From Octopus vulgaris (taxonomy: Eukaryota): 64,000 bases of DNA. Within the stretch, counting starts at the first letter, position 1. Every line of letters begins with the position of its first letter. A program made the translations under genes and the position numbers. The notes under the pieces are model-generated. The model saw only the letters and a program-made list of their open reading frames with translations, ran no database searches and had not been told where the DNA came from. The DNA is taken from positions 13,206,001 to 13,270,000 of the forward strand of contig OX597840.1 of assembly GCA_951406725.2 (NCBI GenBank). Direction: 5' to 3'. This document shows, in pieces, positions 10,527-59,037 of the stretch.

Positions 10527-11062
10527 TATTGGGTTGTCTGGAAAGTTTGTGCCGATTTTTAAAGGGAAGAAATAGGTCGATAAATACTTGCCATTACATT
10601 TTTAATCAACCAAATATGAACCATTTCATTGCACAATATGCGTCTCCATCTTTCCTTTAACTTGAAAATACCCTCTTCCCAGAATTGAGGTGGTTCATGG
10701 CAAAGAATTCATCCAAGGAATTGAAATTTTTACCATTAAGACTATTCTGCAGAGACCTGAATAAGTGGAAATCCAAAGGAGCAATATCTGGTGAATAGGG
10801 AGGGTGGGGTAACATATCCCAGCTAAGCTGCAGCAATTTTTGTCTGGTTCCCAAAGCATCAAGTGCCAAAAATGAACTTTCTTAGCTTCCATTTTAAAGA
10901 GTTACAGAATTAACACAGGTTATAGGAACATAAACCTTCTTCCACGAAAAGATAGCTTAAACTGTACTCTAAATGGAGGTGTAGTGAAATCCTATTTTAT
11001 GGACTCAACCACATTCTAAAATAAGTCAAAAGGTAAGCATGAACTTTCCAGAAAACCCAATA
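10527..11062 (-). mobile_element. Internally deleted mariner element with intact TIRs
   Basis: TIRs TATTGGGTTGTCTGGAAAGTT and AACTTTCCAGAAAACCCAATA with TA ends. Transposase N-terminus MEAKKVHF is joined directly to C-terminal HPPYSPDIAPLDFHLFRSLQ. Confidence 0.9.
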
Positions 11063-23062: not shown

Positions 23063-23398
23063 GTCGACATAAAAGTTTCAAATTACGTCTCCCATCTATT
23101 AGAAAAGATTTTAGGGCCCCTAAGACAATTAGCGGGCTCCAAGATCCAGAAAATCCTCCTATTCTCGAAGAATCTGTACCTCTTAACCAAATTTCCACTC
23201 CTGATTCAACAGTTCCACATCAGACGTCGCCATCAAGAAAGAAGATTGAAAGCCTACAATCTGACTCCAGTAGCCTACTTGAACCTAAGTCACATCTGGA
23301 GGATCACAGTGAGCTGAGGAGAGCCTCCTCGTTAGAGGGATTAACTCAGCACCAATCGCTCGATGCTGATGACAAGATTCGGACTAATAGTGAGCCAC
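23063..23398 (+). CDS. KCNH2: ERG/KCNH2-family K+ channel internal exon (proximal N-terminus, equivalent to hERG exon 4), phase 1-1
   Basis: Acceptor ttttttttccAG (23061-62) and donor cac|GTAAGT (23399). Encodes GRHKSFKLRLPS (cf. hERG GRAKTFRLKLPA) and LRRASS (cf. hERG VRRASS). The symbol denotes the ERG subfamily, not 1:1 orthology. Confidence 0.85.
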
Positions 23399-28220: not shown

Positions 28221-29262
28221 TATTGCGTCATCTCATAAATAATGTGGTTTTTTATACTTCTTTTATTTTTCAAAATTCAGATAAACAAAGTTCTTTTTTA
28301 ATCTAAAATATACTCTCCTTCATTTTCTACAATGCTCTTCCATCTTTCTAGTAGACTTGCAAGGCCCCTCTTCCAAAATTCACTTGTCCATGACAAAAAA
28401 TACTCCCCCATTACTGTTCTGACCTTGTCTTCAGAATTCAGATATTTCCCATCCAAGTGGTTTTGAAGACTGCAGAATAAATGATAATCAGATGGGGCAA
28501 TGTCCGGTAAATATGGTGGGTGGGGCATTGTTTCCTATTCAAACTGTTCCAACTTTTGGAATGTCATCCTCGCTGTATCTGGCCGAGCATTATCCTGATG
28601 CAGGAACACTTTTCATCTTGAAACTAAAGCTGGTCGTTTTTCTTTTAGCGCTGACTAAAGCTGCTCAAGCTACTTGCAGTAGATCTCTTTTGTTATCGTT
28701 TGGTTTGGGCTTAAAAGTTCGAAGTGGACTAAACCTTTCATAACCCACCAAACAGATAACACCTTACGTGGGTGCAGACCTTCTTTAGCCTGGGGTGCCT
28801 CTGTTTCTCCTTTTCTTGCCCACTGTCTTTGGCACTTGACATTTTTATAGAGAACCCATTTCTCATCAACAGTCACTATTCAGCCCCCAAAAGATTCATT
28901 TGTGAGACATGACAGCAAAGAAGAGCACACATTCACTCTCTGCATGCGATTAGACTCAGAAAGTTTGTGAGGGACCTATTGACCCGATTTGCTGAATTCT
29001 TCTGATGGCATGCAGCTTACACTTACTATTCCTTGCATTTACCATTGCATTGCTGCATTTATTGAACTCCTAAAGTAAAATATGCCAAATAAATAACTGT
29101 TAAAATTGAACTGCACTCTTCAAAACTTGCACTAAGAATAAGGACAAAGTAAAATTACTACCTGCTTTTATAGCAAGTTGATGCAGGTAGTTTATCCCAT
29201 CCCCCTCTAATTTTTAGTTCATGCAATTGTAAAAAACTGCATTATTTATGGAATGAGACAAT
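28221..29262 (-). mobile_element. Degenerate mariner transposon (DDD transposase pseudogene)
   Basis: TIRs ATTG..TCAT..CATAAATAATG. Motifs *VPHKL (from WVPHEL), VDEKWVLY, HQDNAR and HPPYLPDIAPSDYHLF, broken by stops and frameshifts. A solo TIR-like end lies at about 62665. Confidence 0.9.
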
Positions 29263-29413: not shown

Positions 29414-29616
29414 CTCTAGCTAACCATGTTAGGTCCAATTTTATCAGTCAAGCTTCAAGTGACTCTGAACTAGCCAAACATAAAACAAAAGGTTATGATG
29501 ACAGTATTGGCAATTTAATGGATGCCAAGAAAGACATAGACGGTGTTTTATCGACAACTAAACTTCTACCCAACGTTCAGAATATGAAACAAAATGTTAC
29601 AGAAAAATTAGGACTT
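29414..29616 (+). CDS. KCNH2: ERG/KCNH2-family exon (equivalent to hERG exon 5), phase 1-0; absent from the ORF track
   Basis: Acceptor tatttgcAG and donor ctt|GTAAGT. Open reading PLANHVRSNFISQASSDSELAKHK...VQNMKQNVTEKLGL (cf. hERG STSDSDL and HNVTEKVTQ). In frame with both neighbouring exons. Confidence 0.9.
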
Positions 29617-39262: not shown

Positions 39263-39711
39263 GTGGAGAACCAGATCAGATTGGAGTCTGGTTCACCAGA
39301 CCTCAGTCAAATCGTCCAACACATGCTAGCATGGAAAGCGGACGTTGAACGATGATGATGATATATGTATGAAGGTGTGTGGTCTAATGGTCGACCTCGG
39401 CGGAATTTGAACTCAGAACGTAGCGACAGATGAAATACCGCTAAGCATTTCGCATATCATACTAACGTTTCTGCCAGCTTGCAGCTTTATACATATACAT
39501 ATATATTTACATATGCACACACACACATATATATATATATATATTTACATATGCATACACTCACACACACATATATATATATATATAACATATACACACA
39601 TCAGAGATGTCTTTTCGTCATGTCTTATGTACCAAGACATTTTGTTTTTGTTTTTTTTCTCTCAATATATATCGCATATTAAATTTCGATATTTTCTCTT
39701 TGTTCTTTTAG

Positions 39712-39756
39712 ATATTCAGGCGTGGAGTCAAAAATGGCACAAATGGAGTAGATGAG
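39712..39756 (+). CDS. Probable 45-nt in-frame micro-exon of the ERG channel (IFRRGVKNGTNGVDE), phase 0-0
   Basis: Polypyrimidine tract ttttctctttgttcttttAG (39710-11) and strong donor gag|GTAAGA (39757). Length is divisible by 3, there is no stop, and it sits in a non-repetitive island. Confidence 0.6.
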
Positions 39757-40238
39757 GTAAGATTCTGGTTCTTTTGTATTCTACAAAAAATGTTTCCTTT
39801 TTCTTTATTATTTTTTTTTCATTGTACCCCCCTTGGGAAACCCAAGTCAATTGATCAACCCAAGTGATACAAGCTGAAAGGACATTGAGGTCGATCCATC
39901 AGCCCGATGAAACAAACATTGGGAATGGTTGGTTTTAAAGTGTAATAGCCAATCAGAGATCATCTTTTAGTACATTTTTTTGTTTTGTTTTGTTTTTTCA
40001 CAGAAGATTTCATAATACCCTTTTATTCTTTTATATGTTTGTCATTTGAGTGTGGCCATGCTGAAGCACCACCTTAAAGGGCTTTAGATGAAGAAATCGA
40101 CCCCAGGACTCGTTTGTTGTAAGCCTAGTGCTTATTCTATCAGTCTCTTTTGCTGAACTGCTAAGTTATGGGGACATAAACATACCAACATCAGGTGTCA
40201 AGTGATGATGGGGCAAACAGACACACACACATACATAA

Positions 40239-49390: not shown

Positions 49391-49912
49391 TCCCAGTATG
49401 GAAAGTGAATGTTAAACAATGATGATAATGATAATGATGATAAACCTCCACCAAGGCAACACCAATGTCCTCTCAATCATTATCCAGAGATGATTTTTAA
49501 AATGAGAATATCTGAAATAATCTTGACTGCTCTCACAAACGAGAATACTAATAATGAACCCAACCGCTCTCAAAAATTAAGTAAAAAAGCTGGAAAAATA
49601 ATCCAGAATCCTTGACCAGTACTGGATCGATCCCGAAATTTAACTACTAACGACTAACCTGAGCAAGCAAATTCATTCTTTAGACTATTACTAGTCAGGA
49701 AATCATAAAGTGGCACAAACAGGCGACTTTTGGAATGTTTTAAATGTGTAATTCGTGTATATTCACCGGATAAAAACCGTTTTTTTTCCACATGATGTTA
49801 TATCTCTGTTCATCAATTAAAAAGTTTGTTGGAAACAGCTGTAGTGAATGACTCATTATCCATCTATTGTTCTACATATATATATTTACATATTGTTTTT
49901 CTGCTTTTGCAG

Positions 49913-50344
49913 GTACTTTCTCTTGGAGCTGACGTCATTCCAGAGTACAAACTGCAATCATCTCGCATCCACAGGTGCACAATTCTTCATTATTCTCCGT
50001 TCAAAGCTGTTTGGGACTGGATTATTCTTCTCCTTGTGATCTACACAGCAATATTTACTCCCTATGTTGCAGCTTTTCTTTTAAGTGAGGAACGTAAAAA
50101 GGAAGCTTATCAGAGCGTGCAAAACTCTTATCAAGATCCTCTCACCATTATAGACCTTATTGTCGATGTGATGTTTATCATCGACATTCTTATCAACTTC
50201 CGTACCACGTATGTCAATAAAAACGATGAAGTAGTCAGCCATCCAGGGAAAATTGCTGTTCATTATTTTAAGGGTTGGTTTCTCATTGATGTGGTGGCAG
50301 CCATCCCATTTGACTTGTTACTGTTCGGTTCAGAAACTGATGAA
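49913..50344 (+). CDS. KCNH2: ERG/KCNH2-family exon encoding S1-S3 of the voltage sensor (equivalent to hERG exon 6), phase 0-0
   Basis: Acceptor cttttgcAG and donor gaa|GTAAGT. Encodes [68 protein letters not shown], nearly identical to hERG. Confidence 0.97.
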
Positions 50345-55800: not shown

Positions 55801-58800
55801 CATCATCATCATCATCGTTTAACGTCCGTTTTCCGCGCTAGCACGGGTTGGACAGTTTGACCGGGGTCTGGGAAGCCAGGGGCCGTTCCAGGCTCCAGTC
55901 TGATTTGGCAGAGTTTCTACGGCTGGATGCCCTTCCTAACGCCAACCACTCCGTGAGTGGATTGGGTGCTTTTTACGTGCCACCTGCACAGGGGCCGGGG
56001 GGTCCGGCATTGGTCGCGATCGGTTCAAGCTTTTAACGTGCCAGCGGCACGGGGGCAACTGGGTCCGGGGTACTTTGGGGATCCGGGGTACTTTGGGGAT
56101 CTGGGGAACTTTGGGGATCCGGGGTACTTTGAATGGGTAGGGGGTATGTGGAATTGCTGCAGAAAGCAGCCCGGGTCTTTGCAGTCACAGCATATCTCCA
56201 GAGATCTCAGTCTTTCGCCATTGCTTCAGTGAGGCCCAATGCTCTGAGGTCATGCTTGACTACCTCATCCCATGTCTTCCTGGGTCTACCTCTCCCCCTG
56301 ATACCTTCAACTGTTTGGGAGTGGCACTTCTTCACACATCTCTCTTCATCCATCCGCAGCACATGACCATACCATTGCAAGCATCGCTCTTGCACACCAC
56401 ATCTGATGCTTCTTATATCCAGCATTTCTCTTAGGATGCTTACACTCTGTCTTGCGTGCACACTGACACTACACATCCAGCGGATCATGCTAGCTTCATT
56501 TCTTTCAAGTCTACGCATGTCCTCTGCAGTCACTGCCCATGTTTCATTACCGTGAAGCATGGCAGTTCGCACACATGCATCATACAATCTACCTTTCGCT
56601 CTGAGGGAGAGACCTTTTGTTGCCAGTAGGGGTAGGAGCTTTCTGAACTTTGCCCAGGCTATTCGTATTCTAGTGGTGATACTCTCTGTGCATCCACCTC
56701 CGCTACTAACTTGGTCACCCAGGTAGCGGAAACTATCAACTACTTCTAGTTTCTCTCCCTGGAGTGTGATGGAATCTGTTTTCTGAGTGTCTGTTGTGTC
56801 TATTGTCCCTGTGCATCTGCCGCACATGAAAGCTATCTTATCTGTTAATTTCCCTTTAATGTTGCTGCATCTCTTATGTGTCCATAACTTACATTGGGTG
56901 CATCTTATGGAGTTTCTACCTGTACCTTTCCTACAGATTGAGCAGGGCCACCTACCCGAGGGGTGTGTGCTGAGTACCTCTTGCTGCTTACTAATACTTT
57001 GGTCTTTGCTACATTTATTCTAAGGCCTTTGATTCCAACCCTTGCTTCCACACCCGAAATTTCTCTTCTAGTTCCGGTAGTGATTCTGCTATGAGAGCTA
57101 GGTCATCGGCATAGAGGAGCTCCCAGGGGCATCCCATTTTGAATTCCTCTGTTATTGCCTGAAGGACTATGATGAATAAAAGGGGACTGAGGGCTGAGCC
57201 CTGGTGCACACCTACTTCTACCCGGAATTCTTCACTATATTCGTTGCCAATCCTAACCTTGCTGACAGCCTCTCTGTATAGAGCCTGTACAGCCCTTATT
57301 AGCCATTCTTCAATCTCCAGTTTCCGCATCGACCACCAGATGAGGGAACGGGGAACCCTGTCAAAGGCTTTCTCCAAGTCTACAAAAGCTATGTAGAGGG
57401 GTTTATCTTTAGCTAGGTACTTCTCCTGCAGTTGTCGGACCAGGAATATAGCATCAGTGGTGCTTCTACCTGGTACAAAACCGAACTGCATTTCATCTAA
57501 ACAAATTCTCTCCCTAATGAGATGGGTTATGACCTTCTCTGAGACCTTCATCACCTGGTCCAACAGTTTGATACCTCTGTAGTTATTTCTATCTAGAGCA
57601 TCACCCTTACCCTTGTAGCAGTTGACTATGGTGCTGCTGCACCAGTCATTGGGTATGACTCCATTGTGAACTACCTGGTTTACAATGCGGGTGACTATGG
57701 TATAGCCCACATAGCCAGCTGTTTTAAGCATCTCAGCAGTGATTCCTGATAGGCCAGGGGCTTTGCCTGGTTTCATATCCTTAATTGCCTTATCTACAAG
57801 GGAGCTGTCTATTCGGGTAGCTGGTCCCTCTACTGGGTCAACATTTGGCAGGCTCTCCTCCTCCCATTCATTCTCCTCATTTAGCAGTCTTTCATAATGG
57901 CTTCTCCAAGCCTCTTTCTTTTCACTAGCAGTAAATGCAAGTGCCCCATCATCCATGCGGACACATTTCTCTCCTATAACATCACTATTTTCTCTGACAC
58001 ACTGTCTGGCAATCCGAAATACTTCAGCTCTTTGATCCTCGCGTCGCTGGACATTGGCAAACTTCTTCTTTTCTGCTACGTCTTTGGCTATGTATACCTG
58101 CCGCCCAGCCTCCCTTTTGGCTATCTGGTACAGTTCCCTGCTGCCCCCATCCTTCCAGGCTTTCCAGGCCCGTCTCTTTTTACAGATGGCTTTATCTACT
58201 GCACTATTCCACCACCACGTAATTCTAGGTCTGGAAGGGACTTTGCACCATCCACAGACTCGGTCTGTGGCACTCAGCAAGCTGTCCCGTAGGAATTCCG
58301 AGCTACCTTCTATGTCTGACGTCTGAAGCTCCTCCTCCCTCTCATCAAATTTCTTGATGAGTATGTCCCTAAATTTCTGACCATGTGAAGGGTTCTTTAG
58401 CCTCCAAATCCTTCTTTTCTGGATTGGTTTGTTTCTTGGAGTCCTTCTGGCCTCAAGCTTAAAGTCACTGATGATTAGTCTATGCTGAGGGATACATTCT
58501 TCACCCGGGAGGGTCTTTGTATTCAAGAGCAACCCTGCATCCCGCTGTCTGGTGAGGATGAAGTCTATTTGGCTAGCGGAGTCTCCTGACTGATAGGTTA
58601 TAAGGTGGCAGACTGGCTTCTTGAAGTTAGTGTTGCAGATTGAAAGGTTACATGCATCACAGAATTCCAGCAGTCTAGTTCCCTCATCATTTCTGGTGCC
58701 AATACCATAGCCACCATGTACCCCAGTGAAGATACCCGATTCCCGCCCAACATGCCCATTAAAGTCTCCACCTACAAAGATGAGGTCCTTGCTACTAGTC

Positions 58801-58827
58801 TTTGAAGTAGCCTGCAGAAGGTTATCA
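55801..58827 (-). mobile_element. 5'-truncated RTE-clade LINE (APE endonuclease C-terminal part, reverse transcriptase, PHD-like finger, 3'UTR, (GAT)n tail), frameshifted
   Basis: ORF 57015-58874 has GDFNGHVG, TYQSG..QIDFIL, DLEKAFD, GVHQGS and LLYADDL. ORF 56207-56827 has FRYLG, LQWYGHV and RGRGRPRKTW. Frameshifts at about 56960-57030. The element ends in GAT repeats at 55801. Confidence 0.93.
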
Positions 58828-59037
58828 TGTGTGTGTGTGTGTATTTGTGTTTGCCCCCCAACATCGCTTGACAACCGATGCTGGTGTATTTATGTCCCCG
58901 TTACTTAGCGATTCGGCAAAAGAGGCCGATAGAATAAGTACTGGGCTTACAAAGAATAAGTCCTGGGGTTGAGTTGCTCGATTAAAGGCGGTGCTCCAGC
59001 ATGGTCACAGTCAACTGACTGAAACAAGTAAAAGAGA

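What the first reader, a model, noticed from the sequence alone, without database searches (positions are those of the whole stretch)
39712..39756. Extra 15-aa micro-exon inserted in the conserved pre-S1 segment of an ERG channel
Seen: strong AG and GTAAGA sites, 45 nt, phase 0-0, no stop, unique flanks. Known: in h[19 protein letters not shown] is contiguous across one intron, and this is also the acceptor used by the ERG1b alternative first exon. Inference: a cassette exon adding IFRRGVKNGTNGVDE to the cytoplasmic region next to the voltage sensor could tune gating in a tissue-specific or neural way.
Basis: partly seen in the sequence, partly recalled or inferred. Interest (0 to 1): 0.72.

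Follow-up and report, generated by a model that had tools for sequence, protein, structure and literature searches.

The report
Extra exon in cephalopod ERG channel
This is a real 45-base coding exon, shared with cuttlefish, that adds 15 amino acids ahead of the voltage sensor of an ERG potassium channel; it was present in every transcript we could read, so it is likely a fixed part of the cephalopod channel rather than a tissue switch, and its charges are predicted to shift the opening voltage.

Summary
The exon is real. 39712-39756 is 45 nt, AG…GTAAGA, phase 0-0, and the best-scoring of 84 candidate small exons on both strands. Spliced contigs from 4 of 4 runs laid (4 studies) join it to exon 49913. 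All 14 listed full-length proteins of a cuttlefish-type cluster include it, 14 of 15 residues identical. One of them is a public Sepia pharaonis model. The 'cassette' reading is unproven, because no skipped form was seen. The upstream exon has lost V-x-Q, found in 192 of 193 non-cephalopod homologues, and the new exon supplies V-D-E in its place. Its donor scores higher than both neighbours', and it lacks the UGC mark of neural microexons. I favour fixed or near-fixed inclusion (0.6) over a regulated cassette (0.33); contigs drop rare isoforms and the tissues are unknown. The same junction carries mostly unrelated optional inserts in bivalves and a hemichordate, so it is a hotspot of exon gain. 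The exon puts Arg-Arg…Lys at about the distance from VLSLG where hERG has its gating cluster KIKER; an effect on activation voltage is inferred, not tested. Interest is modest.

The parts
23065..23397 (+). ERG coding exon, proximal N-linker (ends approximate)
   Evidence: tblastn with P0001, 77% identical
29414..29616 (+). ERG coding exon upstream of the small exon; ends NVTEKLGL; weak donor CTT|GTAAGT (2.3 bits)
   Evidence: same boundary in genomic read-through proteins P0135/P0197/P0198 of the cuttlefish-type gene
39637..39711 (+). AG-free pyrimidine-rich stretch (73 nt) and acceptor AG; the AG is part of an in-frame TAG; no TGC within about 155 nt of the acceptor
39712..39756 (+). 45-nt coding exon, IFRRGVKNGTNGVDE, phase 0-0
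   Evidence: sequence; spliced to 49913 in 4 of 4 runs; 14 of 15 residues identical in P0001/P0002
39757..39762 (+). donor GTAAGA (6.4 bits, higher than both neighbouring donors)
49913..50344 (+). ERG coding exon VLSLGADV…ETDE (pre-S1 to S3)
   Evidence: contigs cover exactly 49911-50344 with loose ends on both sides

Best explanation
A 45-base coding exon is spliced into the ERG (KCNH2/6/7-like) potassium channel mRNA at the end of the cytoplasmic N-terminal linker, and it is likely included in all or nearly all full-length transcripts of coleoid cephalopods rather than switched by tissue. Shown: splicing to the pre-S1 exon, translation in frame, conservation in a cuttlefish, and inserts at the same junction in other animals. 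Inferred: the exon arose or survived in an intron that tolerates inserts and became fixed. The old V-x-Q end of the upstream exon then decayed to L-G-L, while the exon's own V-D-E end took its place before VLSLG. Inferred and untested (about 0.4 on its own): its Arg-13, Arg-12 and Lys-9 (counted from the V of VLSLG) act electrostatically on the voltage sensor, as reported for hERG's KIKER cluster at -15 to -11, and so shift the voltage of activation.
For: Inclusion in 4 of 4 runs laid, 4 studies, 2 organism codes; each run gave one unbroken contig and no second path. Inclusion in 14 of 14 listed full-length members of the P0001 cluster: 13 Logan proteins on 37 contigs plus Sepia pharaonis model CAE1295831.1. 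14 of 15 residues identical, against 142 of 178 in the two upstream linker exons (the difference is not significant, p 0.18). With the tripeptide left free, 192 of 193 non-cephalopod proteins that carry the upstream anchor end in V-x-Q, including those with optional inserts; the window and 17 of 17 cuttlefish-type records that cover the site end in LGL. Own donor 6.4 bits against 2.3 upstream, the reverse of the pattern described for fly eMIC exons (PMC8797185, passage). HMMER aligns the exon with hERG residues about 363-376. KIKER charge swaps shift activation V0.5 (PMC7580876 and PMC3557309, passages citing Saenen 2006).
Against: Only 4 of 20 holder runs were laid. They were chosen for holding the downstream exon, their tissues are unknown, and assembled contigs drop rare variants. 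Only 15 of 40 cluster members were listed, and the heavy A>G-type variation suggests they may all be neural. In bivalves and a hemichordate, inserts at this junction are optional in the annotated isoform sets, which raises the prior for a cassette. The 193 homologues are redundant (many birds and isoforms). Net charge of the last 15 residues before VLSLG is +1 with or without the exon (read), so any electrostatic effect would depend on position. The structure model was too poor to test contact with the voltage sensor.
Confidence: 0.6

Rival explanations
1. A regulated cassette exon: included where the gene is highly expressed (probably nervous tissue) and skipped elsewhere or at other stages, giving two channels with different gating.
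For: The length is a multiple of three, phase 0-0, so skipping keeps the frame. Optional inserts at the same junction: Mytilus 10 of 16 records, Argopecten 3 of 5, Mercenaria 2 of 3, Crassostrea virginica 11 of 17, Ptychodera 2 of 3. My RNA sample is biased to high-expressing runs and cannot show rare forms. [quoted passage not shown]
Against: No skipped form in 4 of 4 runs or 14 of 14 listed proteins. A search of shorter proteins found 1 hit among 46 candidates, a genomic read-through. The V-x-Q end that species with optional inserts keep is lost here. No UGC near the acceptor, no YTRAY branch motif in 200 nt, and a strong own donor.
Confidence: 0.33
2. The 45 nt is the 3' end of an ERG1b-like alternative first exon that yields a PAS-less channel.
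For: Mussel and snail models have PAS-less first exons ending RRSA(I/V)xE on this same acceptor. Their last 8 residues resemble the exon's end weakly (shuffle p 0.02-0.07).
Against: An in-frame TAG lies directly upstream, there is no in-frame ATG in the 45 nt, and the next Met is inside S2. The cuttlefish-type proteins show it as an internal exon after LGL. Contigs extend 228-1403 nt upstream of 49911, and the two longest fit a full PAS-bearing N-terminus (fit by length only).
Confidence: 0.04
3. A real but functionally neutral spacer: fixed by drift in a disordered linker, with no effect on gating.
For: Inserts of 3 to 73 residues, mostly of unrelated sequence, are tolerated at this junction. 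hERG constructs lacking residues 141-380 still function, though with a shifted V0.5 (PMC7580876, passage). Conservation is not significantly above the flanking linker.
Against: 14 of 15 residues are kept between this species and cuttlefish, and the basic residues fall near the hERG KIKER spacing. This rival concerns function only and is compatible with fixed inclusion.
Confidence: 0.35

Closest known systems
hERG (KCNH2, Kv11.1) proximal domain with the KIKER cluster, K362-R366
   Same: Same channel subfamily: PAS, six-TM and CNBHD domains, best PDB hit hERG at 1077 bits against 596 for EAG1. Basic residues lie about 9-15 positions before VLSLG in both.
   Different: In hERG the cluster is encoded upstream of NVTEKVTQ and the junction is contiguous. 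Here NVTEK is displaced by 15 residues and the basic residues come from a separate exon. No sequence homology between the exon and KIKER is claimed.
Optional inserts at EKVAQ|VLSLG in bivalve, hemichordate and teleost ERG gene models (e.g. XP_069110947.1 against XP_069110948.1)
   Same: Same junction, in frame, short.
   Different: Unrelated sequence (end-anchored shuffle p 0.07-0.95). In the bivalves and the hemichordate the inserts are optional in the isoform sets, and these species keep V-x-Q. The cephalopod exon was always included, and V-x-Q is lost.
Chiton Liolophura sinensis ERG model XP_064613900.1, 32-residue insert
   Same: Same junction; starts IVIRS and ends TSGVET, resembling both ends of the cephalopod exon (shuffle p 0.0004-0.0007).
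   Different: 17 residues longer, a single gene model, keeps VAQ. The comparison was chosen after seeing it, so homology is only a lead.
eMIC/SRRM4-dependent neural microexons
   Same: Short, frame-preserving exon in an ion-channel gene; AG-free zone and TCTC motifs upstream.
   Different: No UGC near the acceptor, a strong own donor, an AG-free zone no longer than those of the neighbouring exons, and no skipping seen.
ERG1b-type alternative first exons (hERG1b recalled; mussel and snail PAS-less models P0148, P0171, P0187)
   Same: They use the same downstream acceptor.
   Different: This exon is internal and has no start codon; no such first exon was found in intron 29617-49912.

Membership tests
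Erg subfamily (Kv11) of EAG channels - host gene | N-terminal PAS (eag) domain, six-TM pore domain and CNBHD in one gene | tested here: met
   Exons matching P0001 residues 1-149, 341-687 and 684-835 lie in order on G000:C27 13.01-13.31 Mb; Pfam PAS_9, Ion_trans, cNMP_binding on P0001
Erg subfamily (Kv11) of EAG channels - host gene | Closer to hERG than to Eag or Elk | tested here: met
   hERG 1077 bits, EAG1/EAG2 584-596 bits; no tree was built
Internal coding exon | Spliced to the downstream exon in mRNA | tested here: met
   4 of 4 runs
Internal coding exon | Spliced to the upstream exon in mRNA | tested here: inconclusive
   Shown in cuttlefish-type proteins; in this species only 30 upstream letters were displayed
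Cassette (alternatively skipped) exon | A skipped isoform exists | tested here: inconclusive
   0 of 4 runs and 0 of 14 listed proteins skip it, but contigs drop rare forms and tissues are unknown
Cassette (alternatively skipped) exon | Tissue-dependent inclusion | not testable with these tools
   Runs carry no tissue label and are contigs only
Microexon | Length at most 27 nt (strict) or 51 nt (wide); thresholds recalled, not from a call | tested here: inconclusive
   45 nt meets the wide definition, not the strict one
eMIC/SRRM4-dependent neural microexon | UGC close to the 3' splice site | tested here: not met
   Nearest TGC at 39552, 160 nt upstream (feature from PMC8797185 passage)
eMIC/SRRM4-dependent neural microexon | Long AG exclusion zone, UCUC-rich tract, strong branch point | tested here: inconclusive
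   AG-free 73 nt, but the neighbours have 108 and 66 nt; TCTC three times; no YTRAY in 200 nt
eMIC/SRRM4-dependent neural microexon | Weak own 5' site with strong upstream 5' site (fly pattern) | tested here: not met
   6.4 against 2.3 bits on a generic matrix
ERG1b-type alternative first exon | Own in-frame start codon and no upstream splice | tested here: not met
   In-frame TAG at 39709-39711, no in-frame ATG; internal in P0001

The most novel reading that the evidence does not exclude
The intron before VLSLG is a gating-tuning slot of ERG channels that bivalves, acorn worms, sea cucumbers and teleosts have each filled with their own small exon. Coleoid cephalopods fixed an old molluscan exon (possibly shared with chitons) that rebuilds a KIKER-like basic cluster next to the voltage sensor, converging on the human channel's electrostatic control of activation.
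Probability: 0.2. Interest if true: 0.6.

Novelty: new member of a known kind. Interest (0 to 1): 0.33.

Why it matters
It shows that the cephalopod ERG channel differs from other ERG channels at a segment that is otherwise nearly invariant, and that any functional study of it needs the 15 extra residues. The wider point is that one intron has taken up mostly unrelated small exons in several animal groups, next to a stretch known to set hERG's activation voltage, which offers a natural panel for testing how the proximal linker controls the voltage sensor. The exon is already part of a public cuttlefish gene model, and lineage-specific small exons in ion-channel linkers are a known phenomenon, so surprise is limited.

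Tried and rejected
Chance splice-site match: rejected. Alternative acceptor at 39720 (37 nt): frameshifts, scores 4.2 bits, and the cuttlefish proteins use the first acceptor; not excluded as a minor event. Search for a molluscan-type b first exon in the intron by tblastn with 8 N-termini and a motif scan: no significant hit in the rows printed (output cut; best E 0.45); the two motif hits are copies of an interspersed repeat. Origin by duplication of the upstream exon's end: 14 of 26 nt match (shuffle p 0.012, window chosen after looking), and the peptide end resembles both the canonical end and the b-exon ends weakly (p 0.007-0.07); undecided. AlphaFold2 model of P0001: mean pLDDT 47.8, residues 136-371 below 50, so uninformative; no fold search was run. 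The 50% representative search gave 21 hits, none with the cephalopod LGL end, so no date from nautilus or vampire squid; the IFR start of P0202 belongs to a truncated Plakobranchus model and was set aside. No octopus-named ERG protein came up in three protein searches. A first count of 128 of 128 V-x-Q was circular, because the pattern demanded it, and one mis-hit (P0187) had been dropped; it was redone with a free tripeptide (193 of 232 proteins had the anchor, 39 fragments or other N-termini did not). No run is on record as RNA (no RNA holder listed); the contigs' exon-exact ends show that they are spliced. No laying covered the small exon, the intron and the next exon together. Rfam: 0 matches in 39300-40200. 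Literature: 10 searches listed no paper on a cephalopod ERG exon; subscription journals are not covered, bioRxiv supplements are closed (the exon tables of 10.64898/2026.09.05.749416, which includes Octopus bimaculoides tissues, may list it), and Saenen 2006 and Sale 2008 were not held. Earlier scan findings: none.

Full report
Setting. The window is G000:C27:13206001-13270000 of a 2.8 Gb genome. It is rich in simple repeats, and its channel exons are 94-95% identical to a protein clustered with Sepia pharaonis KCNH7. I infer a coleoid cephalopod, probably an octopus; no call names it. The gene spans about 295 kb, with PAS exons upstream and pore and CNBHD exons downstream of the window. The cuttlefish-type protein P0001 scores 1077 bits with hERG and under 600 with EAG1/2, so the host is an Erg-subfamily channel.

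Observation. 39712-39756 is flanked by a pyrimidine tract plus AG and by GTAAGA, is 45 nt long and reads IFRRGVKNGTNGVDE; both neighbouring exon borders are phase 0. On a generic splice matrix of my own it is the top candidate at 15.4 bits among 49 plus-strand and 35 minus-strand in-frame candidates in the window; the next scores 9.4.

It is a real exon. (a) Of 20 runs holding the downstream exon I laid 4, from 4 studies and 2 organism codes. Each gave one contig covering exactly 49911-50344, with no intron cover, and in 4 of 4 the letters before it were 39725-39754. The tool only guesses that these runs are RNA, but exon-exact ends show splicing. (b) P0001 reads [32 protein letters not shown]. 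Of 40 cluster members 15 were listed; the 14 that cover the site all include the exon, among them the public model CAE1295831.1. Identity is 14 of 15, against 142 of 178 in the two upstream linker exons (not significantly higher). The upstream junction 29616>39712 is shown only in these proteins; in this species the contigs run 228-1403 nt further upstream, but the letters were not displayed.

Cassette or fixed? No skipped form was seen. That is weak on its own: contigs drop rare isoforms, tissues are unknown, runs were picked for holding the gene, and 25 cluster members were not listed. Sequence evidence adds weight. In 193 of 232 non-cephalopod homologues the upstream anchor was found, and 192 continue V-x-Q (125 VAQ, 65 VTQ, 2 VVQ, 1 VTH); the set is redundant but spans molluscs, an annelid, insects, hemichordates and vertebrates. 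The window and all 17 cuttlefish-type records covering the site have L-G-L instead, and the new exon ends V-D-E. The simplest reading is that the exon now supplies the residues before VLSLG and the skipped junction is no longer under selection (inference). The exon's donor (6.4 bits) is stronger than the upstream one (2.3), there is no TGC within about 155 nt of the acceptor, and the 73-nt AG-free zone is no longer than its neighbours' 108 and 66 nt. It therefore does not fit the code described for fly eMIC exons (PMC8797185, passage). I put fixed or near-fixed inclusion at 0.6 and a regulated cassette at 0.33.

The junction is a hotspot. Annotated isoform sets show optional in-frame inserts at EKVAQ|VLSLG in Mytilus (10 of 16 records; 10 or 14 residues), Argopecten (3 of 5), Mercenaria (2 of 3), Crassostrea virginica (11 of 17; 15 or 73 residues) and Ptychodera (2 of 3). 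There are none in the gastropods Haliotis (0 of 12), Patella (0 of 3), Biomphalaria (0 of 6) and Pomacea (0 of 7); PAS-less records and fragments are left out of these counts. Further records show inserts in a chiton (32), Ostrea (52), Glandiceps (15), a sea cucumber (12) and two teleosts (3). These are gene models whose read support I did not check. Of 9 inserts compared, only the chiton's resembles the cephalopod exon, at both ends (shuffle p 0.0004-0.0007, comparison chosen after seeing it). Mussel and snail models also have PAS-less first exons on the same acceptor. I found no such exon in this intron, and the 45 nt cannot be the coding end of one: an in-frame TAG precedes it and it holds no in-frame ATG.

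How it most likely works. The insert sits at the C-terminal end of the proximal linker, 25 residues before HYSPF. In hERG, K362-R366 (KIKER) lies at -15 to -11 from V377 (numbering). Passages of PMC7580876 and PMC3557309 report, citing Saenen 2006 (not held), that reversing these charges shifts activation by about -41 mV and that the proximal domain acts on steady-state activation rather than deactivation. The mollusc sequences without insert mostly have one Lys in that interval; the exon puts Arg at -13 and -12 and Lys at -9, with Asp and Glu at -2 and -1. I infer an electrostatic shift of activation voltage, about 0.4 likely. Against it, the net charge of the last 15 residues is unchanged, the site tolerates very different inserts, and the structure model was uninformative (mean pLDDT 47.8).

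Comparison and novelty. It works like a lineage-specific small exon in a flexible channel linker. [quoted passage not shown] Ten searches of the held library listed nothing on this exon, but it is already in a public cuttlefish model, and closed supplements with octopus exon tables may list it. All papers were seen as search listings or passages only. Verdict: observation confirmed, the cassette interpretation unproven and less likely than fixed inclusion, new member of a known kind, interest 0.33.

Noticed in passing
P0001 cluster (P0004-P0015): The 1170-residue members differ only by substitutions that fit A>G changes (R/G4, Y/C368, D/G508, N/S541, S/G623, K/E760, I/V767, R/G866, M/V1039, T/A1112), the pattern expected of A-to-I recoding of this channel, including the S4-S5 region and CNBHD.
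   Followed up: no
window 50084: A>G in the contig of run X14 only (1 of 4 runs), turning Ser (AGT) into Gly at the start of the S1-S2 loop; editing or allele.
   Followed up: partly
L002 1439-1920 (G000:C9, about 105.93 Mb): A second Erg-like gene, 67% identical in S1-S3, whose corresponding exon seems to lack the [15 protein letters not shown] segment (read by eye); fits the reported molluscan Erg duplication.
   Followed up: no
P0148, P0149, P0171, P0177-P0179, P0187: Mussel and two snails share PAS-less ERG first exons ending R-R-S-A-(I/V)-x-E on the acceptor recalled for hERG1b; a conserved b-type isoform in molluscs that I could not find in this intron.
   Followed up: partly
P0079, P0118: Two teleost ERG models carry a 3-residue insert (VTQ) at the same junction, possibly a 9-nt microexon or a shifted donor.
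   Followed up: no
window 56207-58889, minus strand: Two adjoining open frames (270 and 624 residues) that look like a LINE (RTE-like) endonuclease and reverse transcriptase, inside the intron after exon 50344; named by eye from motifs.
   Followed up: no
window 28298-28534 and 10657-10881, minus strand: Short frames resembling mariner transposase C-termini (PPYSPDIAP-type motif, recalled), in introns.
   Followed up: no
window 39718-39719: A second AG 8 nt inside the exon could act as a minor frameshifting acceptor (4.2 bits).
   Followed up: partly
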